From contig CAYWLQ010000004.1 of assembly GCA_964458775.1 (NCBI GenBank), positions 15,526-79,525 of the forward strand: DNA of 64,000 nucleotides. Direction: 5' to 3'. Under the pieces are notes generated by a model, which had not been told where the DNA came from, did not search any database, and was given only the letters and a program-made list of their open reading frames with translations. This DNA comes from an uncultured Myxococcales bacterium (lineage in GTDB: Bacteria; Myxococcota_A; Polyangia; JAAYKL01). The first letter of the stretch is position 1. Each line of letters opens with the position of its first letter. Below, in pieces: positions 3,300 to 34,887 of the stretch. The translations under genes and the position numbers were made by a program.

Positions 3300-6200
3300 C
3301 TACTTTAGGTTCAAACGCCTCATCATTTTCTGCAAACCAAATCGGGATATTCCCAACATAGTTGCTGCTGCAGTTTGATTTCCTTTTGCGTCCCTTAGCG
3401 CTGCTGTTAACAGCCTTTTTTTGAGGCGATCCACCTGAAGATTAATGTCCAAATTTGTCTCTGCAACACTCATTTCTTCCAATTGTGTTACAATATCTTG
3501 AGATAGGTGTTCAGGGCCGATTTCTTTTTCCGAAAGCACAACAGATCTAATAATTTCATTTTCTAATTGGCGAACATTTCCGGGCCACGAATAATCAATC
3601 AATATTTCTGCTGCTGCTTTAGTAATTAATTTCTTTTGACTGCTGTGTTTGGCAATGAAATGTTCCGCCAAAAGAAGAATATCTTCTTTTCTTTTTCTAA
3701 GCGGCGGCAGTGTTATTTCAATAACATTTAGACGATAATATAAGTCTTCTCTAAAAGAACCCTCTTTTACGTGTGCTTTTAGGTCTGAATTTGTTGCAGC
3801 TAAAATTCTAACATTTACTGTGCGAGTTTTGGTTCCCCCGACAGGTCTAACTTCGTGATTTTGTAATACACGAAGTAACTTAGCTTGTATGGAAAGAGGC
3901 AGGTCTGCAATCTCATCTAAAAACAGAGTTCCGCCGTCAGCCTCTACAAATAAGCCTCGACTGTCAACCACAGCTCCAGTAAACGCTCCTTTTGCATGAC
4001 CAAAAAACACTGACTCCATTAAGGACTCAGGGATGGCAGCACAGTTTTCAGCAACAAATGATTTCTTCTTTCGAGCACTGTTAAAATGAATTGCACGGGC
4101 AACAAGTTCCTTTCCGGTTCCTGACTCTCCGCCGATTATTACCGGAAAATCAGCCGCTACTATTCTGTCCAATAGACGAAAGAGTTCGACCATCGGTTTT
4201 GAATGAGCAACAATTTCATCATATTTATATCTATTAATAAGCTCTGTTGTACGCTTTTCTAATTGCTCTTTTACTTCCTCAAGTTCTCCTTCACGGCGTT
4301 CAAGTTTTCCGGCCAAATCACGATTTAGACGCTCAATACGAGCTTGACGTCTATCCAACTCCAATCGCAATCTGGCATTAGTCAGAGCAATTGCCGCTTG
4401 GTCTGCCAGTGCTTCAAGAAGTGCTAATCTGGTTTCATCGAAACGACCCGGTTGCTTGCTGTCTAGATATATTGTTCCCTGAGCCTTTCCATCTACAAGC
4501 AAAGGTATTGCAGCAATATATCTAAGATTAAAACGAACTACGCTGATCATTTCGTTAAATCGATCATCATCACGTGCATCAGTAGTTAATAACGGCTCTT
4601 TCATCTCAAAGGCACGGAGAGCAGCGCCGCGAGAAAAGCCGGCTTCTTCCAAAGACAAAGACTCTTTGTCCATATTTCTTGCACACCTTATTTTAAGCTC
4701 TCCTTTGGGACTAGCAATAAGCAAGAATCCTCGTTCAGCGTGAGTAATATCAAGAGCTGCATCCATTATCATTTCTAATAATCGTCCTACACGAAACTCT
4801 GAATTGAGCCTGGTATTAATTCTGGCCAAGTGTTCCCATCCGTATGAAGATTCAAAAAGATGAGACGATGTTTCTTTGTTTATAATCATATTCATCTCCC
4901 TTAAATACGGAGCATCGGCCTTTTGATACAAGGATGGAATTTTTTTCTGCATTGAAGATGTAATTATAGATGCAGCTGTAGCCGCACGACAGGATTCTGC
5001 CTTTTGACCGGTTGCAAAAGCAGCACGGGCAACCTCAACAAAGGCTTTTAAATGCTCATCTCTGTAGTAAGCTTGGTCTGTAGGTAATAGGCGAAGTAAA
5101 TCTTTAAGTGTCAACGCAATGTCACCGTTTGATTTGGTTGTTAGTTTTAACAAGAGTCTTTGATATTCCAATTGCAGAGATGCGTTTTTATTATGCGCTG
5201 ACAAACTAATCTTGTTCAGATAGTGTGTAGCATTTTCAAAATCCCCTATATCAATAGCTAACTCCGCAAGATGAAGCCGTGCTGAATCTGAAGACAAATC
5301 GCTTTTTTCCACGCCCGACCGAGCCTCGGCTTCCTCAAACAGTAACCGAGCTTCATCATAACGGTTTAGGGCAACAAGAATATCTCCTCTGACACATAAA
5401 ATGGTGCCGGAAAATTGCGAATTTGAACATCGTGCATCCTCCAAAGCTAAACGAGATACAGTCTCCGCACCTGCCAAATCTCCGAGTCTAAACAGAAGCT
5501 CTGCATAATTTGCTCCAGCCAAAGACAGTTCGCCGGGTCGCCCGAACAGTCTGATTTGTGACAAGCCTTCTCTATAAGCTTCAAGTGATTCTGAAAATCT
5601 TCCCAACTCAGTCAATGCCGCCGCCAAGTTTAAAATGTGGGTGGCTGCACCGTGTCGATCTCCAGCTTTTTTTGCAAATTTTACAGCTTCTGAATAAAAG
5701 GCGGCGGCTTCTATAAAATTTGATGTTCGATGACGCTGCATACCCATAAGGCCGTTGAATCTGGCTAAGCTTTTGTAGTCATATCGAGATGATGCCTTTT
5801 CAATTCCTTGAGCAAAAATGAATAATGCACGATCATCATTACCGCTAGACAAAAAAACAAGACCTACAGACGCAGATATTTCACAGTAAACCTCTGATGA
5901 AAGTTGCTCAAAAGAAATTTGTTCAACCAGTTTTCTTGCAGATTCCAAATGTCCTCGTTCAAGTTCGATGCGGGCAATTGTCGATAAGGCTGCCCCTTTT
6001 ACATCATGATTATTTGATTCTTTAAGTACTTTCAGTATTTCAACTGCTGAGCTTGTTTCTCCCAACAGACGGAGAGATAATGCCTGTTCAAGATATGCAC
6101 TGTCGTTGTTGTTCGAAGCCGTTTCTAACGCCACGCTTACAGTATCAATAGCCAATCTATATTCACCTGTTTGACGATACAACCGCGCCAAGAGCACTCT

Positions 6201-8369
6201 TAATCTACCTTCTTCTTCAGTCGAAAATGCCTTAAGAGAAATCGCTCTTGATAAATAAATAGCACCTCCTGTCAAATCGCCGGCAGCGATCAAAACAATA
6301 TAGGCATCTTTTGCAGCTGTTTTTGCTCGTTCCCAATCCTCAGCAGCATATGCATGGTCTGCTATTTTCCAAGGAGCGGCTGTGCCTGTTTTGTCCAAAA
6401 GAATAATGGCTTTTTGATGAAGTTCTCTCAATCTCCTAGAAGAAATCATTGTTGTCAGACGTTTTGCCGAAAAGGTCTTTAAAGAGATACTACCGTTATC
6501 TATGTCAACCCAACCTTGCTTTTCGAGAGTTCTAAGGTATTCCACTAGAATTGCTTCGTTTTGAATATGGAAAGTTGATGTTAGACTCTCTAAGGATACC
6601 TGTTCCCCAATCACTGCCAAAAACTCTATTGTATTTTTAGCAAGCGGATCCAATCCTTCTAAGAAGCTCTTTATTGCAGCATCAAGCGGATCCGTTTGAA
6701 ATAGCAGTTTGTCAAGGTCTGTCTCTTCAAATTTACCGTTAGGACGAGTATCCAGAAGTGCTAAGAGAATTGCTTCGACAGCAAGCGGAATGCCGCCGGA
6801 CATGCGATGTATTTTCTTTTGAAACTCAACAGCAGCAGGACGCCCTAAAATCTGGGTTACCATGTCGCATTCTTCTTCTATAGAAAGGGGCGGAATTTCA
6901 AGGATTGGAATATCTACATCAACAGAAGTAACAGTCTTTGGAACCATGCCTCTGATTTCTACTGCAACAGTAACGGACGGTCCTAAAACCCTGCTCATTC
7001 GTCTTAGAAGATGAAGCACAGCTAACGCGATATGAGGATTGTTGTCCTCTATTAGAATAATTGCCGGATAATTCAGTTTCCAGAAAACTTCCGCTATTTC
7101 AGTTATTAAGCTAACTTCATTTGTGCATTCTCGGTTAGGTAATGAATCAATTCTTCCTTCAATCCAACACTGCAAAAGTTTACAGGTTTCACCGGATGCC
7201 CTTACAAGAGAGGTTAGTATGGATCTCAGCGAGCCGCATATCAATTCCGGTGGAGTATTACCTTTTTCGGCAGCACGAATTTGAGCAGTAACAACAGCTG
7301 TTTTGAAAAATCTTGATTTACCCACACCCGGCGGACCGCTTATTGCCAGAGTTTGCACTGAATTATTGGGTCTATCCTCAAATATACTAAGCAGCTTTTC
7401 CGTTTCTTTCAAGCGTCCCGACAATCGTATACTTCTCGCTTTGGTAACACGACCGCCTTTGTCACTTGTACTGTAAGTTTCACATATGATGTCAGACAAA
7501 CTGTATTGTTGTGTTGCACCTATATTGATTATTAATGAAAGTGCTTTTGAAACATCGCCGGCACAAAAGAATCTTCGTTCCGCTTTTTGGGATGTCATTC
7601 GCTCAATAATTGCGTTTAGGAGATCTGAATCTGTAGCTTTAACAACTGAATGCAAAACATTATTCGGGTATGGGGGGAAGAAAGCTCTAGGTTTTTTGTC
7701 GGTAAGCAACTCAATTAAGGTAATTCCCAAGCTATAAATATCAGATCGTTCCTCAGGAAAACCGTGAAGCGCTTCTTCTGCTGTATAGCCGATTGTACCC
7801 GCTTTTAAACCGTCTGAGACTTTTCCATCTACTGCCAATCCAAAATCAATTAGCCTTACAGTATGTCCTTCATCACCTACCAAAATATTGGACGGTTTGA
7901 TATCCCGATGCAGCAACCCATAACGGTGGACAAGATCGAGAGCAGAAGCAACCGCTGAGACAATTCTTACTGCAGCAGCTACTCTGCCTATTCCAGGCTC
8001 TGCAATTGTCTTAATCCACTGATTGGAAGCCGAGCCGTTAACAAATTCGGAGGTGAAAAACATCGTATCCAAAAGCGGTCCGTCGCGGCCTTCAACTTGG
8101 AAAACCTTTCCCAAATCAAACACTTTGACAAGATGAAGATGTTCCATTCTTTTAACCGCTTCAAACTCATATCGAAGTAAACTATTTAAGGTAGATTTTG
8201 ATAATGTTTTTAGTGCTTTTAGATTGTCATTTTCAAGTCGGTCAGATACCAGATAGACTGTTCCTTGTCCTCCCTTTCCCAAAATGTCGTGAATGATATA
8301 TCTATTGTTAACAACCGCCTTTTCGACGAGATTTAACCGTTCCGGTTTGTTACACATTTGCTCAAACAT
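3300..8369 (-). CDS. Multidomain regulator: Ser/Thr protein kinase, P-loop STAND/AAA NTPase, TPR repeats, GAF, sigma-54 interaction domain, Fis-type HTH
   Basis: Kinase motifs 'LGKGGQGTVY', 'HRDIKPSNILV', 'DFGLA'. A Walker A 'GPPGVGKSRF' follows the kinase. A long TPR-like helical repeat region is followed by a GAF-like region. The C-terminal sigma-54 AAA+ carries '[18 protein letters not shown]', 'GAFTGA' and 'ESVFFGHAKGAFTGA', then a C-terminal HTH. The first in-frame ATG with a GGAG RBS is at 8369. The track start at 8408 is a TTG. Confidence 0.8.
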   Translation of the reverse strand: MFEQMCNKPERLNLVEKAVVNNRYIIHDILGKGGQGTVYLVSDRLENDNLKALKTLSKSTLNSLLRYEFEAVKRMEHLHLVKVFDLGKVFQVEGRDGPLLDTMFFTSEFVNGSASNQWIKTIAEPGIGRVAAAVRIVSAVASALDLVHRYGLLHRDIKPSNILVGDEGHTVRLIDFGLAVDGKVSDGLKAGTIGYTAEEALHGFPEERSDIYSLGITLIELLTDKKPRAFFPPYPNNVLHSVVKATDSDLLNAIIERMTSQKAERRFFCAGDVSKALSLIINIGATQQYSLSDIICETYSTSDKGGRVTKARSIRLSGRLKETEKLLSIFEDRPNNSVQTLAISGPPGVGKSRFFKTAVVTAQIRAAEKGNTPPELICGSLRSILTSLVRASGETCKLLQCWIEGRIDSLPNRECTNEVSLITEIAEVFWKLNYPAIILIEDNNPHIALAVLHLLRRMSRVLGPSVTVAVEIRGMVPKTVTSVDVDIPILEIPPLSIEEECDMVTQILGRPAAVEFQKKIHRMSGGIPLAVEAILLALLDTRPNGKFEETDLDKLLFQTDPLDAAIKSFLEGLDPLAKNTIEFLAVIGEQVSLESLTSTFHIQNEAILVEYLRTLEKQGWVDIDNGSISLKTFSAKRLTTMISSRRLRELHQKAIILLDKTGTAAPWKIADHAYAAEDWERAKTAAKDAYIVLIAAGDLTGGAIYLSRAISLKAFSTEEEGRLRVLLARLYRQTGEYRLAIDTVSVALETASNNNDSAYLEQALSLRLLGETSSAVEILKVLKESNNHDVKGAALSTIARIELERGHLESARKLVEQISFEQLSSEVYCEISASVGLVFLSSGNDDRALFIFAQGIEKASSRYDYKSLARFNGLMGMQRHRTSNFIEAAAFYSEAVKFAKKAGDRHGAATHILNLAAALTELGRFSESLEAYREGLSQIRLFGRPGELSLAGANYAELLFRLGDLAGAETVSRLALEDARCSNSQFSGTILCVRGDILVALNRYDEARLLFEEAEARSGVEKSDLSSDSARLHLAELAIDIGDFENATHYLNKISLSAHNKNASLQLEYQRLLLKLTTKSNGDIALTLKDLLRLLPTDQAYYRDEHLKAFVEVARAAFATGQKAESCRAATAASIITSSMQKKIPSLYQKADAPYLREMNMIINKETSSHLFESSYGWEHLARINTRLNSEFRVGRLLEMIMDAALDITHAERGFLLIASPKGELKIRCARNMDKESLSLEEAGFSRGAALRAFEMKEPLLTTDARDDDRFNEMISVVRFNLRYIAAIPLLVDGKAQGTIYLDSKQPGRFDETRLALLEALADQAAIALTNARLRLELDRRQARIERLNRDLAGKLERREGELEEVKEQLEKRTTELINRYKYDEIVAHSKPMVELFRLLDRIVAADFPVIIGGESGTGKELVARAIHFNSARKKKSFVAENCAAIPESLMESVFFGHAKGAFTGAVVDSRGLFVEADGGTLFLDEIADLPLSIQAKLLRVLQNHEVRPVGGTKTRTVNVRILAATNSDLKAHVKEGSFREDLYYRLNVIEITLPPLRKRKEDILLLAEHFIAKHSSQKKLITKAAAEILIDYSWPGNVRQLENEIIRSVVLSEKEIGPEHLSQDIVTQLEEMSVAETNLDINLQVDRLKKRLLTAALRDAKGNQTAAATMLGISRFGLQKMMRRLNLK

Positions 8370-8725
8370 ATGACAACTCCGTTGTATTAATTGTACAAAC
8401 CAAAACAATCCTTCCTATCAATTAACCAGAAACAGCATAATTATTCCTGTTGCAATATGCTGTAAAAATGCATATTTCCAACCTATTAAAGAATTTGCAT
8501 TTGATAAATGTTACCAAAACCCCATGTCAACAAGGTTGACAAACCTAATTTTACCTGAATATTTTTGAACAAGTGTTGTATGTAAGAAAAATACTACACA
8601 AAAGAAGAGTTCTAAACACATGTCTATTCAACAAAGAAAAATTTTCTATCCTTAATACGCGCACCATGTGCTAAGGTCACGAAGGATATATTTTTTAATT
8701 AATACAATCGGTCATGGGAGTTGCT

Positions 8726-10708
8726 ATGGCTAGAGCCTCTTCAAACATTATACTTATTAGTACTTCAGAGGATACCAAAAGCTTCTTCTCATTTTTGTTT
8801 CGTCAACATTTCAAGAAGCACAATCTTATTATTGTTTCTTCACATAGAGATATTGTTACAGAAAAAGAAAAACTTCAGCTCGATGCAATAATTATTGATG
8901 AACCTGCATCTGAACTTGAAACAACCGCAAAAGAACTTTCAGATATGTTTTCTAATCTTTCGTTATCCTGCAAGGTCCCATTAATGGCTTTAATAGAGAG
9001 CGACGAAGTTTTAAACAAAGCAGACAGGCTACAGTCATTTGGCATTGATGATGTAGTTTTTCGACCCATCGATGATAGAGAACTTTTAGTTCGAATAAGA
9101 ATGATGCTGAGAATAAAAGCTGCTGAAGAAGAAAATAGAATCGCTCGACTTCGTATATTAGAAATGGAATCAGCACATCAATCTGAGTTGGTGGCAAAGG
9201 AAAAGCGTTATCAACGTTTGGTTGAAATATCACCTGATGCCATTTTGATTTGTAACGAAGGAAAAATTACTTTCATAAACAATTCTGGAAAGATGCTTCT
9301 TAGACTTAGCAATCCGGAAACCCTTATCGGGCGTCCTTTGATCGACATTATCCATCCGGAATCTATTTTCGCCATAAGAAGAATCTTACAAGATTCAGAA
9401 TCTGCAAAAACCCAAACACCGTTTTCTCTAATTAAGCTCAGGGCCGAAAACGGGTCAGTTGCAAATGCAGAAGCGGTTGCAGTACCCTTTGATGACAACG
9501 ACAACAAAAGTGTTATGTTGGTGTTTCGCGACATAGCAGGAAGACCGGCTATGACTGAAAGATTTCAACAATCACAAAGAATGGAAGCTGTCGGTCAACT
9601 TGCCGGCGGTGTTGCTCACGATTTTAATAATATTCTCACCACGATTAGAGGGTACTCCGATTTGCTGTTGGACACTCTTAAGAAAGAAGACCCGCTTGTC
9701 GAAGATGTTAAGGAAATTAAAAATGCAACTGAACGAGCCGCTTCTCTAACCAGACAATTATTGGCCTTCAGTAGAAGACAACAGATGGCACCGGCTCCTC
9801 TTGATATAAACAGAGTGGTGTCAGACATTCAAAGAATGTTAAAGCGAATGATAGGTGACCATATAGAACTGATTACTGACTTGGAGCCGGATTTGGGAAT
9901 CGTAAAGGCCGACAGAAGTCAAATTGAACAGGTAATAATGAATCTATGTGTCAACGCCAGAGATGCCATGCTTAATGGAGGCACAATAACAATTAGAACC
10001 TCCAATATCGAGATAAAAAATGAGAGACCGGAATCGGCTCCCGATATCAGTCCCGGAACCTATGCTTTGTTAGAAGTAAAGGATACCGGTGTTGGAATCA
10101 GTCAGGATATTATTTTTCATATTTTTGAGCCTTTCTTTACAACCAAACCCAAGGACATGGGAACCGGCTTGGGATTGTCAACAGTATACGGAATCGTAAA
10201 ACAAAGCGGAGGTGATATTTCTGTACAGAGCACTCCCAATAAAGGAACTGTCTTTAGGATTTATTTACCCATAGTGTCAGACTATGCTTCAGAAAATTTT
10301 ATAAAATTTGATCGAGGTCCTGCCGGCGGTTCCGAAACTATTTTATTAGTGGAAGACGATAAAACGGTAAGATATTTGGCTAAACGTCTTTTGGAAAGAG
10401 CCGGTTACAAAGTAATACCAACAGCCAACGGAGCCGAAGCCCTTTTTCTTGCTGAGCAACACAAAGGAGATATTCATTTAATACTTACAGATGTGGTAAT
10501 GCCGGAAATGGGCGGAACAGCGTTGGTAGAGAAACTGGCTAAGAAGCATCGTAATTTAAAAGCCATCTTGATGTCAGGATATTCTGACAAAGATGTTATT
10601 AAATTTGCTGAGCGGCACTCCGGTGTGGTTTTTCTCCCCAAACCGTTTAGTTATGAAGAGTTGACCCAAAAAGTACGATCTGTATTGGATTGTGAAGATA
10701 ATACTTAA
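8726..10708 (+). CDS. Hybrid sensor histidine kinase (degenerate N-terminal REC-like domain, PAS, HisKA, HATPase_c, C-terminal REC)
   Basis: PAS region 'ISPDAILICNEGKITFINN'. H-box 'VGQLAGGVAHDFNNILT'. ATPase motifs 'NLCVNARDA', 'DTGVGIS', 'GTGLGLS'. C-terminal receiver 'ILLVEDD...LILTDVVMPEMGG...LMSGY'. The ATG at 8726 has a GGGAG RBS. The alternative start is 8714. Confidence 0.8.
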   Translation: MARASSNIILISTSEDTKSFFSFLFRQHFKKHNLIIVSSHRDIVTEKEKLQLDAIIIDEPASELETTAKELSDMFSNLSLSCKVPLMALIESDEVLNKADRLQSFGIDDVVFRPIDDRELLVRIRMMLRIKAAEEENRIARLRILEMESAHQSELVAKEKRYQRLVEISPDAILICNEGKITFINNSGKMLLRLSNPETLIGRPLIDIIHPESIFAIRRILQDSESAKTQTPFSLIKLRAENGSVANAEAVAVPFDDNDNKSVMLVFRDIAGRPAMTERFQQSQRMEAVGQLAGGVAHDFNNILTTIRGYSDLLLDTLKKEDPLVEDVKEIKNATERAASLTRQLLAFSRRQQMAPAPLDINRVVSDIQRMLKRMIGDHIELITDLEPDLGIVKADRSQIEQVIMNLCVNARDAMLNGGTITIRTSNIEIKNERPESAPDISPGTYALLEVKDTGVGISQDIIFHIFEPFFTTKPKDMGTGLGLSTVYGIVKQSGGDISVQSTPNKGTVFRIYLPIVSDYASENFIKFDRGPAGGSETILLVEDDKTVRYLAKRLLERAGYKVIPTANGAEALFLAEQHKGDIHLILTDVVMPEMGGTALVEKLAKKHRNLKAILMSGYSDKDVIKFAERHSGVVFLPKPFSYEELTQKVRSVLDCEDNT

Positions 10709-10922: not shown

Positions 10923-11336
10923 TTAATTTTCTATTTTTTGCATAGAGCAGTGAAATGCTTCTATAATTGCCGATATTGAAGCATCTATTTCCCCCTGTTT
11001 GCCAATAATTCGGCAGCCGGCTCTTCCCACAGCTTCTGATGAACGAACAACAAACCCGGCTTCAGCAGCTACAGAATCAATATCAAATAATACTCTGTCA
11101 TCAGGATGAACCGTTATTTCAGCATTAGCAAAACCTTTTGATAATATTAATGCTTTAGAAAAAACTCTTTCAAGAATTATTGGATTCTTATCTATTTCGA
11201 TTCCAATGATGTTTTCAACCATACTACATGCCAATTCAATTGCACTTTTTTTTAGCCAAGACGGATCTGAACAAATATCATTATCATTTGAATGTGTAGA
11301 TTTTGTTATAATTCGTGCTTTGATTATTCTTCCCAA
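10923..11336 (-). CDS. FliH/YscL-like (type III secretion/flagellar ATPase regulator family) C-terminal domain protein
   Basis: 'AEITVHPDD...AVGRAGCRIIGKQGEIDASISAIIE' resembles the conserved FliH/YscL C-terminus (VHPDD...GGCrve...g.iDAslet). This is from memory, with no search run. Confidence 0.4.
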   Translation of the reverse strand: MGRIIKARIITKSTHSNDNDICSDPSWLKKSAIELACSMVENIIGIEIDKNPIILERVFSKALILSKGFANAEITVHPDDRVLFDIDSVAAEAGFVVRSSEAVGRAGCRIIGKQGEIDASISAIIEAFHCSMQKIEN

Positions 11337-11908
11337 GAGATTGTCCCCTTAAGTATTATTTTTATTCGATTACGAAAGTTAGAAGGAAAACTAGGTTCTG
11401 CTAAAACACCTGCTAACCTTCCCATTCTAATCAGCAAACTGCCTTCTTCTGAAGGTAGTCGGTAAGATAGAGTTAACAGTGTATCGTGTAATCTGCATAA
11501 GGCGATAGCGACTGCAGCAAGACCCTTTTCTCGATCTGAGGGATTGGAGCGCGAAACTCCTAATGCAATTTTTAAATCTGAAGTTTTCCAGTTTTGTCCA
11601 ATAACGGATAGTATATTTTCCTCTTGATAAACAGGAACAATCCATAAAGGTAATGATGTGTTGGGGTATTTTGAAAACGATGATTGCAGAGCTTGTTTTA
11701 GATCGAGGTGTGAAACTCCGAGTGACAAAACTTCCAATATTTCTTCAATTGCCGCTCGATTGGAAGGTGACAAAACACTCCATTGTTTTGGGGTGTTGGG
11801 TGTAATTCCCCTTGAGTATGCAGCTACTGCGGCAGCTAATATAGCTCCTCCTCTGGAAAGCAAGGCTTTTAAACTATCTTGTTTTGGTAATTTAGAATTT
11901 TCAGACAT
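11324..11908 (-). CDS. Hypothetical protein (co-oriented and overlapping with the FliH-like gene)
   Basis: 194-aa ORF with no recognisable motif. There is a 13-nt overlap with the downstream FliH-like ORF, suggesting an operon. Confidence 0.35.
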   Translation of the reverse strand: MSENSKLPKQDSLKALLSRGGAILAAAVAAYSRGITPNTPKQWSVLSPSNRAAIEEILEVLSLGVSHLDLKQALQSSFSKYPNTSLPLWIVPVYQEENILSVIGQNWKTSDLKIALGVSRSNPSDREKGLAAVAIALCRLHDTLLTLSYRLPSEEGSLLIRMGRLAGVLAEPSFPSNFRNRIKIILKGTISWEE

Positions 11909-12105
11909 AATTTTGTTCTAAAAATACGCATAACATACCAAATAAGAAGTTTGCAACACGTATATTCAACATGCCTTCTTAGCTGTAACTGTGATATTTT
12001 GTCTAAAAAAGATGTGTTTAAGCCGACAAACAAAAATATTGTCGTATATACTAGTTAAACAATTGTCCCTTTTTATCGAAAGCACCTCTATAGATGGAGA
12101 TAAAA

Positions 12106-13881
12106 ATGACTGGAAACCGCTTTTATGTAAATGAAGAGAGTCCCTGGCTAAAACCCGAATCAGGATGGCCGGACGAAGTTCCTCATCAATTTCAAACAGA
12201 TGAACGCTCTCTTTATGAAGTATTGTCTGATTCTTGCAAAGATTATGCTGACAGAAGAGTTATCTGGTTTGAACCTCTCAATACGGAAATAACTTATAGA
12301 GAACTAAAGTTAGCTGTAGATCGCTTTGCTTCAGGACTGTATCAACATAATATTAGAAAAGGTGATACGGTGGCACTTATGCTTCCCAATAGTCCGCAGT
12401 ATATTACTGCCTATTATGCATGTCATTGCATCGGCGCAGCGGTAACCGGTATTAATCCTCTCTATAAACCACAGGAGGTACTTCATCAACTGAAGACTAC
12501 AAAGGCCAAGGCTCTTATTGTTCTGGATATGCTTTATGAATCTCAGGTCTCGTCCATATGGGATAAATCAGGAGTCGAGTTATTGGTTACCACTAATATT
12601 GTAGATATGATTAAGGGGAATCATCTCAAAAAACTATTGGGAAAGCTTTTGGGAAAGATTCCGCAAGGCAGCGTACCCGCTTCTTCTCGTTATTTTAACA
12701 GTCTGCTTTCAACAAAAGAAAGCCTTCCCAAAATATCAATAGACTGCCATGAGCCGGCTGTCTATTTGATGACCGGAGGCACTACAGGTGTTCCCAAAGC
12801 AGCGGTTCTAACTCACTTTAATTGTGTTAACAATGCCAAGCAATGCACACATTGGATATACAACATCAAACCGGGGACGGCTTATATTGGGATTCTTCCT
12901 TTGTTTCACGCTTTTGCGATGACCACTTTCATGAACACTATGTTGCGTTCCGGAGGGTTTGCAATGCTGTTTCCCAAACCCCCTCCGACAGATGTTCTTG
13001 TTGAGAAAATCATTCAATTCGGACCTCCAGAGGGAACAATCTATTGCGGTGCAGAAGTATTGTTTAAGCGTATGGCTGATTTTTTGGAAGATGAAACCAA
13101 TAAAGCAAAATACAAAGATGCACTCCAGGGAAAACTGACCTTGTGCATTTCAGGAGCAAGTCCTCTTCATCGTCCCGTTCAGGAAGCCTTTGAGAAGAAT
13201 ACCGGTGCAAAACTCTCAGAGGGTTACGGTCTGACAGAGTCTTCACCGGTAGTCAGTTGTGCTCCGTTTTGGGGTAAAAGAAGTGTAGGAACAATCGGTC
13301 TACCCTTTCCTGGAACAGATTGGCGGATTGTGGATAAGATGGACTACAATAAAAAGATGGAGCAAGGAAGAGAAAATGTAGGAGAACTGGCAGTTGCCGG
13401 TCCGGGGGTAATGAAGGAATATTTAAATCGTTCTGAGGAAACGGCAGAAACACTAGTGGAAATAGACGGAAAGAAGTGGCTTCTTACCGGAGACATCGGA
13501 TACATGGATGAATTAGGTCGAGTGGTAATTCTTGATCGAAAAAAACAGCTGATAAAATTTAAGGGCATGTCAGTCTTTCCCAAAGAGGTTGAAGAGCTTA
13601 TCGCCGGACACGAAGCCGTTAATGAGGCAGCCGTAGCCGGTCTTCCTGACAGCACTTATGGAGAGATAATTAAAGCATGGATTGTTCTTAAGGAAGACAA
13701 GAAAAACAATATTACCGAAGATGAGATGAAGAATTGGTGCGAAGAAAACATGGCACATTACAAGGTGCCCAAACTGATTGAATTTAGAGATGAAATACCC
13801 AAAAACATTATCGGCAAAGTACTGAGAAGAGAACTGCAAGAAAAAGATCCCATATGGCTTAAGGCCCATCTTGAACCTTAA
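12106..13881 (+). CDS. Long-chain fatty-acid-CoA ligase (AMP-dependent synthetase/ligase, FadD-like)
   Basis: AMP-binding motif 'YLMTGGTTGVPKAAVLTH'. Also 'GYGLTE' and 'ITEDEMKNWCEENMAHYKVPKLIEF'. The ATG at 12106 follows a GGAG. The track start is 12094. Confidence 0.8.
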   Translation: MTGNRFYVNEESPWLKPESGWPDEVPHQFQTDERSLYEVLSDSCKDYADRRVIWFEPLNTEITYRELKLAVDRFASGLYQHNIRKGDTVALMLPNSPQYITAYYACHCIGAAVTGINPLYKPQEVLHQLKTTKAKALIVLDMLYESQVSSIWDKSGVELLVTTNIVDMIKGNHLKKLLGKLLGKIPQGSVPASSRYFNSLLSTKESLPKISIDCHEPAVYLMTGGTTGVPKAAVLTHFNCVNNAKQCTHWIYNIKPGTAYIGILPLFHAFAMTTFMNTMLRSGGFAMLFPKPPPTDVLVEKIIQFGPPEGTIYCGAEVLFKRMADFLEDETNKAKYKDALQGKLTLCISGASPLHRPVQEAFEKNTGAKLSEGYGLTESSPVVSCAPFWGKRSVGTIGLPFPGTDWRIVDKMDYNKKMEQGRENVGELAVAGPGVMKEYLNRSEETAETLVEIDGKKWLLTGDIGYMDELGRVVILDRKKQLIKFKGMSVFPKEVEELIAGHEAVNEAAVAGLPDSTYGEIIKAWIVLKEDKKNNITEDEMKNWCEENMAHYKVPKLIEFRDEIPKNIIGKVLRRELQEKDPIWLKAHLEP

Positions 13882-13921
13882 CTTTTCGTCGGAAATAGAC
13901 TCTGAGAGTCGTTCTAACCTT

Positions 13922-14662
13922 TTATTTATTTGTTAATATGTCTGAGTTTAGAGCTTCGTACATAATCTGTCTGGTTTCTTCCATCAAAGCAGTATCTGAC
14001 TTATTTGCAGAGACAATGGGAGAATGAATGACTAATTTTGCTTTACCGGGAAAAAGCATAAGGCTCTTTGTTTGAACAATTTCACGAGTACCGTGAATTG
14101 TTACCGGAAGTACAGGCAATCCAAGATCACAGGCCATTTTGAAAGCACCTTTTTTAAACTTTCCCAACTCTCCTGTTTTGCTGCGAGTGCCTTCAGGAAA
14201 TAGTATTACGGAGGTTCCGTTTACGATGATTTTTTGAGCAGACTCCAGTGATTCCAACGCCTTTTTTGTATTTGATCGGTCAATAAAAATATGTCCCAAA
14301 GCTTCGCAGGCAAACCCCAAAAAAGGGACTTTGCGCAGCTCTTTTTTCATTACCCACCTAAAATCAACACCCAACCATCCATAAAGAGCAACGATATCGT
14401 AGACGCTCTGGTGATTGGCAACAATAATATATGATTGATTTCTATCTATATTCTCCTTTCCTTGAGTCGTAACAAAAACGGGGGTCATATAACATATTAG
14501 TCGAGACCAAAGTCCTCCGCAGTATTTTCCCGCAACTCTCGGACCTGCCATCGGAGCAATAACAAGAGATAAGATTGCAAAAAACAGTGTAGATAATCCC
14601 AAATAAGGTGCAAACACCAACCATGCCCAAAGTTGATATGGGTATATTAATATTCTCTTCAT
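13922..14662 (-). CDS. 1-acyl-sn-glycerol-3-phosphate acyltransferase (PlsC/LPLAT family)
   Basis: HX4D motif 'ANHQSVYDIVAL' and 'FPEGTRS'. The N-terminus is hydrophobic. Confidence 0.75.
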   Translation of the reverse strand: MKRILIYPYQLWAWLVFAPYLGLSTLFFAILSLVIAPMAGPRVAGKYCGGLWSRLICYMTPVFVTTQGKENIDRNQSYIIVANHQSVYDIVALYGWLGVDFRWVMKKELRKVPFLGFACEALGHIFIDRSNTKKALESLESAQKIIVNGTSVILFPEGTRSKTGELGKFKKGAFKMACDLGLPVLPVTIHGTREIVQTKSLMLFPGKAKLVIHSPIVSANKSDTALMEETRQIMYEALNSDILTNK

Positions 14663-14853
14663 AAATCATCCAATCGCAAAACCTGAAATTTTATGTCAGT
14701 CATCAAAACGACGCAGGCGGGAGCCTACATTTATTTCAACGTCCAATCAACACCATCGACAATTCGTACTTGTTAAAGGCAATAGTTTTTTCCAGTTGAA
14801 TTATAGTTAAATATTTTATAGGTTTTCACACCTTGATAAGGGGGTTTTCCAAA

Positions 14854-15606
14854 ATGGGTAAACGAATTACATTAAGTGCACATCCCGCCGATGAACGTAT
14901 CGGAATGCTGTCAATGCATGATGAAGAATCTAAGAATACCTTTACAGATTCTTTTGTTGACGATTTTATGGAAATATTAAATCAACTTCAAAAAAACAAG
15001 ACCTATCGGGTAATAATATTATCCGGTCTTAAGGATGTATTTTGTGCAGGCGCCGCTAAAGAAGCCTTAATGTCTATTTTTGAAGGAGAATTGGAAGTAA
15101 AAGACTTGGCACTTTCTGAGCTTCTCCTCAATATCCCAATACCTGTGATCGCAGCCATGGAGGGCGCAGCTTTAGGCGGCGGTTTTGTAGTTGCCCTTTG
15201 TTGTGATATTGTTCTCATGAACGAAAAGAAAATGTACGGAACTAATTTTACTAACATGGGTTTTACACCCGGCATGGGAGCAACTAGGTTACTGCAAGGT
15301 TTAGTAGGCGATTTTGTTGCTAACGAAATGATGTTTCGCGGTAGATTGATGAAGGGACGAGAATATAAAGGAAGAAGCTTAATTAACTACATACTTCCCG
15401 GAGAAGAAATTCTGTCAAAAGCATTGGATATTGCTCTTGATATTGTTGACAAACCCATAAAGACTCTTCAAATCCTGAAGTACTCAGTTTCCTTGAATAA
15501 ACGTAAGCTTCTTCTTGATGCCAGGGTTCATGAAGATTTCATGCATAAGATCTCCTTCGGCAGTCCCGAAACACGGCAAATAATTGAACGTATGTACAAC
15601 GGTTGA
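14854..15606 (+). CDS. Enoyl-CoA hydratase/isomerase (crotonase) family, PksH/PksI (ECH)-like
   Basis: Crotonase oxyanion-hole segments 'VFCAGAAKEAL' and 'AAMEGAALGGGFVVALCCDIV'. The ATG at 14854 follows an 'AAGGGGG' RBS. The track start at 14833 is a TTG. Confidence 0.7.
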   Translation: MGKRITLSAHPADERIGMLSMHDEESKNTFTDSFVDDFMEILNQLQKNKTYRVIILSGLKDVFCAGAAKEALMSIFEGELEVKDLALSELLLNIPIPVIAAMEGAALGGGFVVALCCDIVLMNEKKMYGTNFTNMGFTPGMGATRLLQGLVGDFVANEMMFRGRLMKGREYKGRSLINYILPGEEILSKALDIALDIVDKPIKTLQILKYSVSLNKRKLLLDARVHEDFMHKISFGSPETRQIIERMYNG

Positions 15607-15837
15607 ATTTTAGAGCATACTGCGATATGGGCAAAGCAGTTGTTTAACCTTTGTATTGTCCGAATGAGGATTTTTCATCCGGATTGACAACGGCGGACAA
15701 AAATATTATAAGGCGCCTGTTTTTTTGAAATATGGAATTTAGGTTGTATAAACATATCGAAATAATTAAGGATTAATAACAATCAAACATCGGCTGTTAT
15801 AGCTGAAAACAAAATTACATCTGGAGGCAACAAGAAA

Positions 15838-16092
15838 ATGACCCACGACGAAGTATTTGCAATATTAAAGAAGCACATTATGGAACAGCTTGAAGATGAG
15901 GTAGAAGAAGATCAAATCGACATTGAGAAATCTATGGTCGACTTGGGTGCCAACAGCCTCGATATCGTTGAAATCGTAACCAACACAATGCGTGAGCTAA
16001 AAATAAAAATCCCAAGGGATGAACTTGCAGCAATTAATACTATGAAGGGCTTGGTCGCAGCGATGACTGAGTTCAAGAATAAAAGCAACTAA
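15838..16092 (+). CDS. Acyl carrier protein
   Basis: 84 aa with 'DLGANSLDIVEIV' (DSL phosphopantetheine-attachment motif). There is a GGAGG RBS. Confidence 0.8.
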   Translation: MTHDEVFAILKKHIMEQLEDEVEEDQIDIEKSMVDLGANSLDIVEIVTNTMRELKIKIPRDELAAINTMKGLVAAMTEFKNKSN

Positions 16093-16293
16093 TTAAAAGA
16101 TGCTTTGAGTACGCTTTTCACAGTACTGTGAACGGATCATGTTTCGGGCACGGGCATGTGTAGATTTTGAAATTTGTAATATAAGCTTGACTTGTATTTG
16201 TTTTCATTTTTACCAACACTGTTTATTTGCGTGCTGAGAGCATAACCGGCGGATTCAATATAGAATCTTCTGAGATAGATGTTTTTGTAAAAA

Positions 16294-16503
16294 ATGTTCG
16301 CGTGTGAGAAGCGAGTAAAAACCCCTATGTTGTTTTCAAAGGAAGTCTTGTTGTTCCTTCAAGAAATGGTCGGAGAGAAGAAGTGCATCTATAAGGTTGG
16401 TATTGAATATCTTGATGGACAACGTACTTCCATGTTAATTGACCATCACAAAGTGAACGATCTTTTTAAAGGGTTCACTTTTCAGGGCATTGGCAATCGG
16501 TGA
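16294..16503 (+). CDS. Small hypothetical ORF inside the cassette (possibly non-coding)
   Basis: 69-aa ORF ending 12 nt before the FabZ-like gene. No motif is recognisable. Confidence 0.15.
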   Translation: MFACEKRVKTPMLFSKEVLLFLQEMVGEKKCIYKVGIEYLDGQRTSMLIDHHKVNDLFKGFTFQGIGNR

Positions 16504-16515
16504 GGAATAAACATT

Positions 16516-17043
16516 TTGGATTACGAACAACTGGCAAAACAATACAGAAAAAAAGCAATTTTGGACGTAGATTCAGCTACATTATCCAAGGTTAATTACA
16601 GACGTTCTGATATTGAGAAATTGTTGCCCCATCGTCATCCATTTTTGTTGGTTGACGGGATAACGGGAATAGATCTTCAACAGCAAGGAATAGTGGGTTT
16701 TAGGAAAATTGATCCGCAAGATCCAATTTTTAAAGGCCATTTCCCAAACTATCCAATTCTGCCCGGGGTTTTGCAAATTGAGATGATAGGACAGCTTGCC
16801 ATTTGTTTTTATGATTTTCACAAGCGACAATGTGTCGACATGCCTGATGATACAGTAACATTGGGTGTAAGAGCGCTTAAAATCTATCATACATTGTTTC
16901 AACACGAAGTGCTTCCGAACGATGAAGTAACAATTTTAGCTAAGCTACTCGAAAAGGACGATTATACTTTTCGAGGTATCGGACAAATTCTAAACGGAAA
17001 CAAGGTTTGTACGATTGCTATTGCCGAGTTTTATATAGTATAG
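16516..17043 (+). CDS. 3-hydroxyacyl-ACP dehydratase (FabZ/FabA hot-dog fold)
   Basis: 'LLPHRHPFLLVDGI' and 'GHFPNYPILPGVLQIEMIGQLA' are FabZ signature segments. The start is a TTG at 16516 after a GGTGAGGA RBS. Confidence 0.7.
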   Translation: MDYEQLAKQYRKKAILDVDSATLSKVNYRRSDIEKLLPHRHPFLLVDGITGIDLQQQGIVGFRKIDPQDPIFKGHFPNYPILPGVLQIEMIGQLAICFYDFHKRQCVDMPDDTVTLGVRALKIYHTLFQHEVLPNDEVTILAKLLEKDDYTFRGIGQILNGNKVCTIAIAEFYIV

Positions 17044-17079
17044 AGCAAACCGGTCTTTTTAGAAGAAGAGGATCATACT

Positions 17080-18372: not shown

Positions 18373-18376
18373 AGGA

Positions 18377-19513: not shown

Positions 19514-19530
19514 AAGTGAGGTTGATTGAT

Positions 19531-20292
19531 ATGCTGCTCGAAGGAAAAAATGTCTTTTTCACTGGCGGTTCAAGAGGTATCGGACATGATGCGGTTCTAG
19601 AGCTTGCCAAACACGGTGCCAATATTGCTTTTACCTATGTAAATAATGAAGCTTCTGCTGCTAAAACAGCCGAAGAGATAAAGGCAATAAATCCTAATGC
19701 AAAGGTTATGTTTTATCAGTTAAACGTGAAAGACTCTAAGCAAGTTGAGAAAGTTGCAGACAAAGCAATAGAGGACATGGGGTCTATTAATGTGGTTGTT
19801 AACAACGCAGGAAATCTTAACGATAATCTGGTTGTAAACATGTCTGATGAGCAGTGGTTTGATGTCATCAATACTCATCTGTCAGGAACTTTTTTTGTTT
19901 GCCGTTCATTCATAAATGAATTCTTATATAATAAGGGCGGTAAATTTATTAACACTTCTTCTATTACATATACAGGTTCAGCCGGACAGGCAAACTACTC
20001 TGCTGCCAAAGCAGGTATTATCGGTTTTTCTCGCGCTTTGGCTAAAGAGTGGGGCAAGAAAAACATTTATACAAATATAATAGTGCCGGGCTACTACGAC
20101 ACCGAACTGACCCGCGCCAATGCCACAGAGATAGTTGTGGACAATTTTGTTCGTATGTCATCTCTTAAACGTGCAGGTCAGGGATATGAGTACGGTCGCG
20201 CTATTGTGTTCTTCGCCTCAGATCTCTCCTCTTTTGTTAACGGTCATGTTCTTGAGGTGACAGGCGGTCTCGAAACCATTCCGCCCATCTGA
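19531..20292 (+). CDS. Short-chain dehydrogenase, 3-oxoacyl-ACP reductase (FabG-like)
   Basis: 'VFFTGGSRGIG', 'NNAG', 'YSAAKAG' (YxxxK). The ATG at 19531 follows an AGTGAGG RBS. Confidence 0.7.
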   Translation: MLLEGKNVFFTGGSRGIGHDAVLELAKHGANIAFTYVNNEASAAKTAEEIKAINPNAKVMFYQLNVKDSKQVEKVADKAIEDMGSINVVVNNAGNLNDNLVVNMSDEQWFDVINTHLSGTFFVCRSFINEFLYNKGGKFINTSSITYTGSAGQANYSAAKAGIIGFSRALAKEWGKKNIYTNIIVPGYYDTELTRANATEIVVDNFVRMSSLKRAGQGYEYGRAIVFFASDLSSFVNGHVLEVTGGLETIPPI

Positions 20293-25617: not shown

Positions 25618-25618
25618 G

Positions 25619-34721: not shown

Positions 34722-34871
34722 AAATGCTTCATTCCTGTTGAAAAACAAACGCCTCTATCGACAACTTTGTTGCTGTTTTTTGTCAACCTTGAGAAACAAT
34801 ACAAATCATACAAATTTTATTTACAATGACAACATGCTGAAATAATTTGTTATTAATAACAGCAGTTATTT

Positions 34872-34887
34872 TGGCACAGGCTTTGAT
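34872..34887 (+). promoter_or_regulatory. Candidate sigma-54 (-24/-12) promoter upstream of small lipoprotein gene
   Basis: TGGCACaggctTTGATc matches TGGCAC-N5-TTGCW except C to A at the -12 GC dinucleotide. It lies about 40 nt upstream of the ATG at 34928. Confidence 0.25.

What the first reader, a model, noticed from the sequence alone, without database searches (positions are those of the whole stretch)
3300..8408. 1.7k-aa fusion of a eukaryotic-type Ser/Thr kinase, a STAND-type P-loop NTPase and TPR array to a GAF/sigma-54 enhancer-binding output
The N-terminus has a full Hanks-type kinase catalytic core. It is followed by a Walker A P-loop and a long TPR region, the architecture of PknK/MalT-like STAND regulators. 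Instead of a LuxR HTH, the C-terminus carries a GAF domain, a complete sigma-54 AAA+ activator module (GAFTGA present) and a Fis HTH. One polypeptide would therefore couple phosphorylation, nucleotide-switch and small-ligand input directly to sigma-54 promoter opening. It is divergently transcribed from a PAS hybrid histidine kinase. This is a rare architecture of regulatory interest.
Basis: seen in the sequence. Interest (0 to 1): 0.6.

Follow-up and report, generated by a model that had tools for sequence, protein, structure and literature searches.

The report
Giant kinase-STAND-GAF sigma-54 activator
One intact 1,689-residue gene fuses an active-looking Ser/Thr kinase, a STAND ATP switch with a TPR sensor, a GAF domain and a complete sigma-54 transcription activator; it belongs to a recurrent but unstudied family, whose closest relatives carry a conserved pair of DNA sites in front of the gene.

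Summary
Window 3300-8369 (minus strand) is one uninterrupted gene of 1,689 aa; the likely start is ATG 8369, not TTG 8408. Domain order is Hanks kinase, STAND NTPase, TPR sensor, GAF, a 66-residue helix, sigma-54 AAA+ and a Fis-type HTH. All catalytic motifs are intact and invariant in 12 full-length orthologues (38-51% identity, 99% coverage) from independent assemblies. The fusion is therefore real, and the kinase is not a pseudokinase by sequence.

The architecture is uncommon but not unique. I found 80 distinct proteins with kinase plus EBP module (1,485-1,942 aa). The same N-terminal module also occurs with histidine-kinase, GGDEF or cyclase outputs.

The new result is a dyad, CAAC-N3-GTTG. 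One copy overlaps the ribosome-binding site. A second lies about 100 nt upstream (154 nt in the window). Across ten orthologue loci, 15 of 20 exact copies fall in 1.5% of the sequence (P about 6e-24). This most likely marks autoregulation through the protein's own invariant HTH.

Gene neighbours are not conserved, and no convincing target promoter was found. The mechanism (STAND- and GAF-gated hexamer assembly, with the kinase as co-output or feedback) is inferred. I found no published study. Verdict: new variant of a known kind, moderate interest.

The parts
3300..8369 (-). Complete CDS of the 1,689-aa kinase-STAND-TPR-GAF-EBP protein (stop codon 3300-3302; start ATG 8367-8369)
   Evidence: (100% identical to P0001)
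7500..8312 (-). Hanks-type Ser/Thr kinase domain (aa 20-290). K54, E68, HRD154-156, K158, N161, D175(FG), T192, E199, D210 and R266 are all invariant in the orthologues.
   Evidence: (M. tuberculosis PknB kinase domain, E 1.6e-19)
6480..7424 (-). STAND nucleotide-binding oligomerisation domain (aa 316-630): P-loop NBD (Walker A GPPGVGKS at aa 345-352 = nt 7314-7337; Walker B region ILIED around aa 440), helical domain and winged helix
   Evidence: AAA_16; AF2 pLDDT 87.5; five beta strands, helical bundle and a beta-hairpin-bearing winged helix; top PDB hit 6mfv, a STAND-TPR protein; also Avs3
4860..6479 (-). Arm plus TPR/MalT-like superhelical sensor (aa 631-1170)
   Evidence: (TPR_12, TPR_MalT)
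4377..4784 (-). GAF domain (aa 1196-1331); ligand unknown
   Evidence: (only generic similarity to solved GAF domains)
4239..4436 (-). Single continuous 66-residue helix (aa 1312-1377) joining GAF to the AAA+ domain. I infer it forms a dimeric coiled-coil signalling helix.
   Evidence: (AF2 helix 132-197 of the segment, pLDDT mostly 85-93)
3471..4214 (-). Sigma-54 interaction AAA+ domain plus lid (aa 1386-1633). GAFTGA lies at nt 3972-3989.
   Evidence: (NifA 9qq6 E 2e-76; ZraR, NtrC1)
3315..3419 (-). Fis-type HTH_8 DNA-binding domain (aa 1651-1685). The recognition helix SR(F/Y)GLQKM is invariant in the orthologues.
8372..8386 (.). Proximal dyad TACAAC-GGA-GTTGTC (gene strand). Its spacer is the Shine-Dalgarno sequence, and it ends 2 nt before the ATG.
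   Evidence: exact copy at -14/-15 in 7 of 10 orthologue loci, and with one mismatch in an eighth
8526..8540 (.). Distal dyad GTCAAC-N3-GTTGAC (perfect 6+6), 154 nt upstream of the proximal copy. It contains a TTGACA hexamer on each strand.
   Evidence: PWM 19.7, the top score in the 64-kb window. The equivalent copy lies at -104 to -122 in 8 of 10 orthologue loci: exact in five (L001, L002, L003, L012, L013) and with one mismatch in three (L010, L011, L014).
8714..10708 (+). Divergently transcribed PAS-HisKA-HATPase-REC hybrid histidine kinase with an N-terminal stretch I judged receiver-like by eye. It is a neighbour, not a conserved partner.
   Evidence: Only L009 has a similar kinase nearby (33% identity). 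It is absent from the other orthologue loci with flanking sequence held.
34760..34887 (+). Weak lead for a target. A core dyad GACAAC-TTT-GTTGCT (34760-34774) lies 105 nt upstream of the window's best -24/-12 match, TGGCAC-N5-TTGAT (34872-34887). A small lipoprotein ORF follows at about 34928-35287.
   Evidence: The PWM score of 13.4 is no better than the shuffle maximum, and the -12 GC is broken.

Best explanation
This is a single, intact cytoplasmic signalling protein from an uncultured Myxococcota-like bacterium. It belongs to an orthologous family of giant bacterial enhancer-binding proteins.

Shown:
- The polypeptide contains, in order, a catalytically complete Hanks-type Ser/Thr kinase, a STAND nucleotide-binding oligomerisation domain with a TPR sensor, a GAF domain, a 66-residue linker helix, a complete sigma-54-contacting AAA+ domain (GAFTGA, Walker A/B, arginine fingers) and a Fis-type HTH.
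- All of these are conserved across orthologues.
- The orthologues share two copies of a dyad, G(Y)CAAC-N3-GTTG(R)C, in front of the gene. One overlaps the ribosome-binding site. The other lies about 100 nt upstream.

Inferred:
1. The protein activates sigma-54-dependent promoters by ATP-driven remodelling of the closed complex, as NifA, NorR and NtrC1 do.
2. AAA+ ring assembly is held off in the resting state by the GAF/coiled-coil dimer, analogous to negative control in NtrC1, DctD, NorR and PexR.
3. It is also held off by the closed, ADP-bound STAND module.
4. An unknown inducer bound by the TPR sensor, and/or a GAF ligand, opens the STAND switch. STAND multimerisation then brings the dimers together into an active ring.
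5. The same multimerisation juxtaposes the kinase domains, which trans-autophosphorylate and either reinforce the switch or phosphorylate other proteins as a second output.
6. The protein binds the two dyads through its own invariant HTH and represses its own sigma-70-type promoter or translation start. This would be negative autoregulation.
For: Single intact gene and real fusion:
- The ORF is uninterrupted and its composition is even.
- There are 12 colinear orthologues at 38-51% identity and 99% coverage.
- 80 distinct kinase+EBP proteins were found.

Domains and motifs:
- Pfam and NCBIfam scans.
- Invariant catalytic residues.
- The kinase aligns to PknB.
- The EBP module aligns to NifA, ZraR and NtrC1.

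STAND fold:
- The AF2 model has pLDDT 87.5.
- Its best PDB match is the STAND-TPR protein 6mfv at E 5e-13, and Avs3 also matches.
- The STAND scheme of NOD, arm and sensor with effectors at either end, and PknK as a STAND kinase, comes from PMC4381067.

Linker:
- AF2 predicts one continuous 66-residue helix between GAF and AAA+.

Dyads:
- 15 of 20 exact copies in 207 kb lie within 310 nt upstream of the start codons of ten orthologue loci (binomial P 6e-24).
- Their positions are fixed.
- There is no consistent RNA hairpin.
- The dyad flanks do not pair with each other as a hairpin would require (read from the copies listed).
- The HTH recognition helix is invariant in the orthologues.
- A distant family member with a different HTH lacks the dyad.

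Other support:
- PexR of M. xanthus is a GAF-bEBP dimer that binds dyad repeats, represses a sigma-A promoter and activates sigma-54 promoters (PMC12754779).
- The organism uses sigma-54 regulation: a second EBP is encoded at 41313-42764.
Against: - No biochemical data exist for any family member, as far as I could find.
- rpoN is not in the window.
- -24/-12 matches are not enriched in the window (29 found against 29.6 expected).
- No dyad-plus-promoter pair was found in the orthologue flanks.
- The one candidate in the window has a broken -12 GC and a chance-level PWM score.
- AAA_16 and TPR_MalT pass their Pfam cut-offs only marginally.
- The STAND module has no sequence-level match in the PDB.
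- The Walker B of the STAND module is not strictly conserved.
- No phospho-acceptor is conserved in the activation loop apart from T192.
- The identity of the protein that binds the dyads is inferred only from co-conservation. The distant-member control is a single case.
- The distal dyad contains TTGACA, so part of its conservation could reflect a -35 element.
Confidence: 0.6

Rival explanations
1. The kinase is the principal output. In this reading the STAND-TPR-GAF region controls a PknK-like kinase that phosphorylates other regulators. The EBP/HTH part mainly tethers the protein to DNA as a repressor or scaffold and does not activate sigma-54 promoters.
For: - The only conserved DNA sites found overlap the gene's own promoter and RBS region, which is a repressive position.
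- No convincing sigma-54 target was found.
- PknK-type STAND kinases exist without any DNA-binding output.
- PexR shows that a myxobacterial bEBP can also repress.
Against: GAFTGA, Walker A/B, the arginine fingers and sensor II are all invariant across the orthologues. That level of conservation is not expected if sigma-54 contact and ATP hydrolysis were dispensable. The Sigma54_activat score is 228 bits.
Confidence: 0.15
2. The conserved dyads are not the protein's own binding sites. They could be operators of another conserved transcription factor, a promoter element (-35 TTGACA) plus a translation-control hairpin, or both.
For: - The right arm of the distal dyad is GTTGACA in most loci, which is a perfect -35 hexamer.
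- The proximal dyad encloses the Shine-Dalgarno sequence, so a 4-bp stem could in principle mask it.
- No binding experiment exists.
Against: - The left arm GCCAAC is as conserved as the right arm (matrix).
- The same dyad occurs at both positions, and in tandem in L011.
- The dyad is not the predicted minimum-energy structure in most loci.
- In the copies listed, the bases flanking the two arms do not pair with each other as a hairpin would require.
- No neighbouring gene is conserved that could encode another factor.
- A distant member with a different HTH lacks the dyad.
Confidence: 0.25
3. The long ORF is an artefact: two or more adjacent genes (kinase-STAND and GAF-EBP) merged by a sequencing or assembly frameshift or a chimeric join.
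For: The contig comes from a metagenome-type assembly. The protein is represented by a single database sequence.
Against: - Twelve independent assemblies encode colinear proteins of 1,654-1,722 aa that align over 99% of the length, including the TPR-GAF junction.
- 80 distinct proteins share the architecture.
- GC and GC3 are uniform along the gene.
Confidence: 0.01
4. It is an anti-phage or conflict STAND NTPase (Avs-like, or a kinase-based defence such as PD-T4-6 or MADS) rather than a housekeeping signalling regulator.
For: - STAND NTPases and Hanks kinases both occur in defence systems.
- The PADLOC and NCBIfam kinase models (PD-T4-6, mad6/MAD6) hit the kinase domain.
- Avs3 appears among the fold matches.
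Against: - All PADLOC hits are single-domain matches to the generic kinase or EBP modules. No Avs or STAND defence model matched.
- MAD6 scores 112 bits against a cut-off of 460.
- The effector is a sigma-54 activator with a DNA-binding domain, not a nuclease or other toxic effector.
- No mobile-element or defence-island context is seen in the window or in most orthologue loci.
Confidence: 0.03

Closest known systems
GAF-type bacterial enhancer-binding proteins (NifA, NorR, FhlA; PexR of Myxococcus xanthus)
   Same: - The C-terminal 500 aa follow the GAF, AAA+ (GAFTGA), HTH_8 order.
- The best solved relative by sequence is NifA (9qq6, E 2e-76).
- The best NCBIfam partial hits are NorR and NifA.
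- PexR provides a precedent for GAF autoinhibition, dyad binding and dual repressor/activator behaviour in the same phylum.
   Different: - About 1,180 extra N-terminal residues carry a kinase and a STAND-TPR module.
- A 66-residue helix separates GAF from AAA+.
- The scores are well below the equivalog cut-offs: NifA 340 against 528.85, and NorR 341 against 476.
- The dyad (CAAC-N3-GTTG) differs from the PexR site CACCG-n6-CGGTG.
- The five bEBP groups in the 2020 review include no kinase or STAND regulatory domain.
PknK of Mycobacterium tuberculosis and MalT of E. coli (STAND regulators with a TPR/SUPR sensor)
   Same: - Like PknK, it has an N-terminal Hanks kinase followed by a P-loop NOD and a MalT-like TPR sensor.
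- STAND logic applies: an ADP-closed and ATP-open switch, with inducer-dependent multimerisation.
- Pfam AAA_16 and TPR_MalT are detected.
- The fold matches a solved STAND-TPR protein.
   Different: - The output is a GAF-sigma-54 AAA+-Fis HTH module. MalT instead has a LuxR-type HTH, and PknK has no DNA-binding domain.
- A second, unrelated ATPase ring-former is present in the same chain.
- There is no sequence-level match to any solved STAND protein.
- The Pfam scores are borderline.
Kinase-STAND-GAF multidomain sensors with other outputs (histidine kinase, GGDEF, class III cyclase), for example the protein annotated as a circadian input-output histidine kinase in Scytonema hofmannii
   Same: They share the N-terminal layout Pkinase, AAA_16, (TPR), GAF. 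Examples recovered in the same searches are P0066, P0102, P0112 and P0119 (HisKA/HATPase), P0106, P0108 and P0111 (GGDEF), and P0086, P0109 and P0114 (cyclase).
   Different: Here the output is a sigma-54 activator, so the signal reaches RNA polymerase directly without a phosphorelay or second messenger.

Membership tests
Bacterial enhancer-binding proteins (sigma-54 activators) | Sigma54_activat AAA+ domain above the curated threshold | tested here: met
   PF00158 scores 228.1 bits against a cut-off of 20.2, covering aa 1386-1552 and the full profile 1-167 of 168. Solved relatives are NifA, ZraR and NtrC1.
Bacterial enhancer-binding proteins (sigma-54 activators) | GAFTGA L1 loop, Walker A, Walker B, arginine fingers and sensor II intact | tested here: met
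   GESGTGKE at 1414, GAFTGA at 1461, LFLDE at 1482, FREDLYYRL at 1539 and GNVRQLEN at 1597. All are invariant in 12 orthologues.
Bacterial enhancer-binding proteins (sigma-54 activators) | C-terminal DNA-binding HTH that recognises an upstream activator sequence | tested here: inconclusive
   HTH_8 is present at 28.6 bits against a cut-off of 22. A conserved dyad was found, but only in front of the gene itself. No dyad-plus-(-24/-12) pair is verified.
Bacterial enhancer-binding proteins (sigma-54 activators) | Sigma-54 (rpoN) present in the genome, and a -24/-12 target promoter | not testable with these tools
   rpoN is not in the 64-kb window. A second EBP at 41313-42764 implies a sigma-54 system. 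Promoter matches are at the chance level.
NifA / NorR equivalogs (NCBIfam TIGR01817, NF003451) | Whole-protein score above the curated equivalog cut-off | tested here: not met
   NifA scores 340.5 against 528.85, and NorR 341 against 476. The protein is GAF-EBP-like but is not a member of either named family.
Hanks-type (eukaryotic-like) Ser/Thr protein kinases | Pkinase domain above threshold, with the catalytic Lys, alphaC Glu, HRD Asp, DxKxxN, DFG Asp and APE Glu | tested here: met
   PF00069 scores 100.2 bits against a cut-off of 31.7. K54, E68, H154-R155-D156, K158, N161, D175, E199, D210 and R266 are invariant. The domain aligns with PknB at E 1.6e-19. The window copy has AEE in place of APE, and most orthologues have DLG in place of DFG.
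Hanks-type (eukaryotic-like) Ser/Thr protein kinases | Phosphotransfer activity | not testable with these tools
   This requires an in vitro kinase assay.
STAND NTPases | P-loop NBD with Walker A and Walker B | tested here: met
   GPPGVGK(S/T)R is invariant. The acidic Walker B (ILIED) is conserved in most but not all orthologues. AAA_16 scores 33.0 against a cut-off of 32.6, which is marginal.
STAND NTPases | NOD made of NBD, helical domain and winged helix, followed by an arm and a repeat sensor | tested here: met
STAND NTPases | Inducer- and ATP-dependent multimerisation | not testable with these tools
   This requires SEC-MALS or cryo-EM with and without ATP and the inducer. The inducer is unknown.
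MalT / LuxR-type STAND transcription factors | C-terminal LuxR-type (GerE) HTH effector | tested here: not met
   There is no GerE/LuxR hit. The C-terminus is GAF, Sigma54_activat and HTH_8.
Known anti-phage defence systems (PADLOC) | Full-length match to a defence-system protein model | tested here: not met
   Only single-domain matches to the kinase or EBP modules were found. No Avs or STAND defence model matched.

The most novel reading that the evidence does not exclude
These proteins could define a further regulatory class of bacterial enhancer-binding protein. In this class, assembly of the sigma-54 AAA+ ring would be licensed by a second, STAND-type nucleotide switch in the same chain. 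A Hanks kinase would be activated by the same oligomerisation, so one inducer would trigger both transcription and Ser/Thr phosphorylation. The protein's level would be set by negative autoregulation through the conserved CAAC-N3-GTTG dyads.
Probability: 0.3. Interest if true: 0.65.

Novelty: new variant of a known kind. Interest (0 to 1): 0.45.

Why it matters
All described bEBPs are controlled by receiver, PAS/V4R/ACT or GAF domains, or by partner proteins. A family that places a STAND switch and an active Ser/Thr kinase upstream of the sigma-54 AAA+ ring would show how two oligomerising ATPases are coupled in one chain. It would also link Hanks-kinase signalling directly to sigma-54 transcription in a phylum known for expansions of both.

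The conserved dyad gives an immediately testable handle. It is a defined DNA site for binding assays and for genome-wide regulon searches. Without experiments, however, this remains a well-annotated architecture and not a demonstrated mechanism.

Tried and rejected
- The exact-sequence contig look-up of P0001 found nothing on record.
It returned only five unrelated TPR/P-loop loci, L004-L008, so species-level taxonomy and the genome-wide distribution could not be obtained that way.
- Rfam found nothing in the window.
- The sigma-54 promoter scan showed no enrichment.
- Gene neighbourhoods with DNA were obtained for nine orthologues. A tenth, P0003, returned only a gene list. None showed a conserved partner or target operon. 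Only a hybrid histidine kinase in L009 (33% identity) and a Peptidase_M20 gene in L003 and L010 recur.
- Literature searches found no paper describing a kinase-EBP fusion.
- Two search calls failed on syntax.
- The myxobacterial kinome paper (Perez et al. 2008), which may list such architectures, is not held.
- The STAND region has no sequence-level PDB relative.
- The GAF domain gave only generic matches and no ligand clue.
- An RNA-hairpin reading of the proximal dyad was rejected. There is no consistent minimum-energy structure, and the bases flanking the arms do not pair as a hairpin would require (read).
- The candidate target at 34760-34887 was downgraded. Its PWM score equals the shuffle maximum and its -12 GC is broken.
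- No -24/-12 sites lie near the extra dyads in the orthologue loci.
Full report
**Observation.** The window has one uninterrupted ORF on the minus strand at 3300-8408, 1,702 codons from TTG. The likely start is ATG at 8369, with GGAG 8-11 nt upstream, which gives 1,689 aa. That length is identical to a database protein, P0001, from an 80,490-nt NCBI contig. It also matches the N-termini of the orthologues. GC (0.40-0.43) and GC3 (0.28-0.34) are even along the gene.

**Domains.** Pfam places these domains in order:
- Pkinase, aa 26-227, 100.2 bits against a cut-off of 31.7.
- AAA_16, aa 316-461, 33.0 against 32.6.
- TPR_12 and TPR_MalT, about aa 725-1119.
- GAF, aa 1196-1331.
- Sigma54_activat, aa 1386-1552, 228 bits.
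- AAA_lid_14, aa 1558-1633.
- HTH_8, aa 1651-1685.

NCBIfam gives only partial, sub-threshold matches to named EBPs: NorR scores 341 against 476 and NifA 340 against 528.85. The protein is therefore not an equivalog of any named activator.

**Is the fusion real, and is the kinase live?** Eleven further proteins of 1,654-1,722 aa from independent assemblies align with it over 99% of the length at 38-51% identity. The following residues and motifs are invariant in that alignment:
- Kinase: the G-loop, K54, E68, H154-R155-D156, K158, N161, D175, T192, E199, D210 and R266.
- STAND: the P-loop GPPGVGK(S/T)R.
- EBP: Walker A, GAFTGA, Walker B, the arginine fingers and sensor II.
- HTH: the recognition helix SR(F/Y)GLQKM.

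The kinase aligns with the M. tuberculosis PknB kinase domain at E 1.6e-19. Two small deviations exist. The window copy has AEE for APE, and most orthologues have DLG for DFG. No activation-loop Ser or Thr other than T192 is conserved.

**The middle region.** It has no sequence-level relative in the PDB. An AlphaFold2 model of aa 300-1180 is confident, with pLDDT 87.5 and pTM 0.73. It shows a five-stranded P-loop domain, a helical domain, a winged helix with a beta hairpin, and a long TPR superhelix. The best Foldseek match in the PDB is 6mfv, a STAND protein with a TPR sensor (E 5e-13), and the antiviral STAND protein Avs3 is also among the hits. This fits the published STAND scheme of NOD, arm and sensor with effector domains at either end. 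The same paper names PknK as a STAND kinase (PMC4381067).

**The C-terminal region.** It matches NifA (9qq6, E 2e-76), ZraR and NtrC1. An AF2 model of aa 1181-1689 has pLDDT 87.6. It shows a GAF fold, then one continuous 66-residue helix (aa 1312-1377), then the AAA+ domain and the HTH. The GAF domain has only generic similarity to solved GAF domains, so its ligand is unknown.

**How common is it?** A search of 1.84 billion cluster representatives with aa 1-1190 gave 230 proteins at E <= 1e-30. I classified all 264 proteins held at that point with domain probes. That gave 80 distinct proteins with kinase plus EBP module, 1,485-1,942 aa long. Source names include Deltaproteobacteria, Proteobacteria, Nitrospirae and WOR-3 MAGs. 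The same N-terminal module also precedes histidine-kinase, GGDEF and cyclase outputs. The architecture is uncommon but is a recurrent family within a modular series.

**Prior description.** The 2020 bEBP review lists five regulatory groups, none with a kinase or a STAND module. My literature searches found no paper on such a fusion. The myxobacterial kinome paper could not be read, so an earlier listing of this architecture cannot be excluded.

**Organism and context.**
- The window's HtpG is closest to proteins named from Myxococcota, Deltaproteobacteria and Myxococcales MAGs, at 54-60% identity.
- The window also encodes bactofilin, several ECF sigma factors, DUF4215 repeat proteins and a second PAS-type EBP.
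- Downstream of the gene, and convergent with it, lie an SDR and folB, folK and folE.
- Upstream and divergent lies a PAS-HisKA-HATPase-REC hybrid kinase with an N-terminal stretch that I judged receiver-like by eye.
- None of these neighbours is conserved in the orthologue loci examined. Only L009 has a similar hybrid kinase nearby (33% identity).
- PADLOC gives only single-domain hits, so a defence role is not supported.

**A conserved cis-element.** I compared the upstream regions of the orthologues and found a dyad, CAAC-N3-GTTG, often G(Y)CAAC-N3-GTTG(R)C.
- A proximal copy lies at -14/-15 from the start codon. Its 3-nt spacer is the Shine-Dalgarno sequence. It is exact in 7 of 10 loci and has one mismatch in an eighth.
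- A distal copy lies at -104 to -122 in 8 of 10 loci, exact or with one mismatch. In the window it lies at -169 (nt 8526-8540) and is a perfect 6+6 palindrome.
- L011 has two extra tandem copies.
- Over 207 kb of sequence, 15 of the 20 exact copies fall in the 310 nt upstream of the start codons, which is 1.5% of the sequence (binomial P about 6e-24).
- The distance from the dyad to the start codon differs by one nucleotide between loci, so the element is not coding.
- The dyad is not the predicted RNA minimum-energy structure in most loci.
- In the copies listed, the bases flanking the arms are Y or R independently in each half. They do not pair with each other as a hairpin would require. This points to a protein-binding DNA site.
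- The only locus-linked conserved factor is the gene product itself, and its HTH is invariant in these orthologues.
- A distant member, P0016 (28% identity), has a different recognition helix and lacks the dyad.

I therefore infer negative autoregulation. The sites bracket a sigma-70-like promoter (TTTACA-18-AATTAT at 8466-8437) and overlap the RBS. PexR of M. xanthus is a published precedent. It is a GAF-bEBP dimer that binds dyad repeats, represses a sigma-A promoter and activates sigma-54 promoters.

**Targets.**
- -24/-12 matches are not enriched in the window.
- Only four exact dyads occur in the 64 kb, against 0.83 expected.
- Two lie upstream of the gene and one lies inside its 3' end.
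- The fourth, at 34762-34772, is 105 nt upstream of the window's single best -24/-12 match, TGGCAC-N5-TTGAT at 34872-34887.
- A small lipoprotein ORF follows, then PAP2 and HAD genes.
- This site scores no better than shuffled sequence with a position matrix. Its -12 GC is broken, and no similar pairs occur in the orthologue flanks. It is a lead only.

**Mechanism.** The domains, motifs, fold, family and dyads are shown. The rest is inferred:
- The GAF/coiled-coil dimer and the ADP-closed STAND module keep the AAA+ domains from forming a ring.
- An inducer on the TPR sensor, and/or a GAF ligand, opens the STAND switch.
- Multimerisation then assembles the sigma-54-activating ring and juxtaposes the kinase domains for trans-autophosphorylation.
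- The kinase acts as feedback or as a second output.

**Verdict.** It is a new variant of known kinds (GAF-type bEBP plus PknK-like STAND kinase). No experimental study was found, and it now has a concrete, testable cis-element. Interest is moderate, at 0.45.

Noticed in passing
window 34760-35287: A core dyad (GACAAC-TTT-GTTGCT) and a GTCAACCTTG half-site lie about 105 nt upstream of the only 1-mismatch sigma-54 -24/-12 match in the window (TGGCACaggctTTGAT). A GGAGG and a roughly 120-aa lipoprotein ORF follow (signal peptide, LSIGC lipobox), then PAP2 and HAD genes. It is a possible target promoter, but the dyad scores at chance level.
   Followed up: partly
window 41313-49525: A second sigma-54 activator (PAS-AAA+-HTH_8, 483 aa) is followed by two tandem paralogous proteins of 1,066 and 1,067 aa. 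Both are full of DUF4215 cysteine-rich repeats, and one also has a PA14 domain.
   Followed up: no
window 12094-21559: A run of lipid or polyketide-type genes: AMP-binding enzyme, acyltransferase, enoyl-CoA hydratase, FabA-like dehydratase, ketosynthase, methyltransferase, ketoreductase and an HMG-CoA-synthase-like gene. I note a resemblance to a beta-branching cassette; this was not tested.
   Followed up: no
window 23203-26922: An 804-aa protein with an N-terminal caspase (Peptidase_C14) domain lies in an apparent minus-strand operon with two unannotated ORFs and an ECF-type sigma factor.
   Followed up: no
window 10923-11908: A small FliH-like ORF (137 aa) overlaps the end of an unannotated 194-aa ORF. 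No other flagellar or type III secretion genes are nearby.
   Followed up: no
window 8661-8671: A second 4-N3-4 palindrome with different arms (GCAC-ATG-GTGC) lies 43-53 nt upstream of the hybrid histidine-kinase start codon. It sits in the same divergent intergenic region as the CAAC dyads.
   Followed up: no
window 36736-36751: A 2-mismatch -24/-12 match (CGGCAAgcataTTGCT, with GG and GC intact) lies 43 nt upstream of a 392-aa sigma-70-family gene (regions 2, 3 and 4) at 36794-37972.
   Followed up: no
window 3354-3364; L001 15282; L012 about 7364: Extra exact CAAC-N3-GTTG copies lie at or just beyond the 3' end of the giant gene in three loci, at +5005, +5281 and +6044 from the start. Their significance is unknown.
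   Followed up: partly
L009 3063-6937: In one orthologue locus, the gene is preceded by a V4R protein and a partner-switching set (GAF-STAS, STAS, two HATPase_c_2 anti-sigma-type kinases and a SpoIIE phosphatase). This is not seen in the other loci.
   Followed up: no
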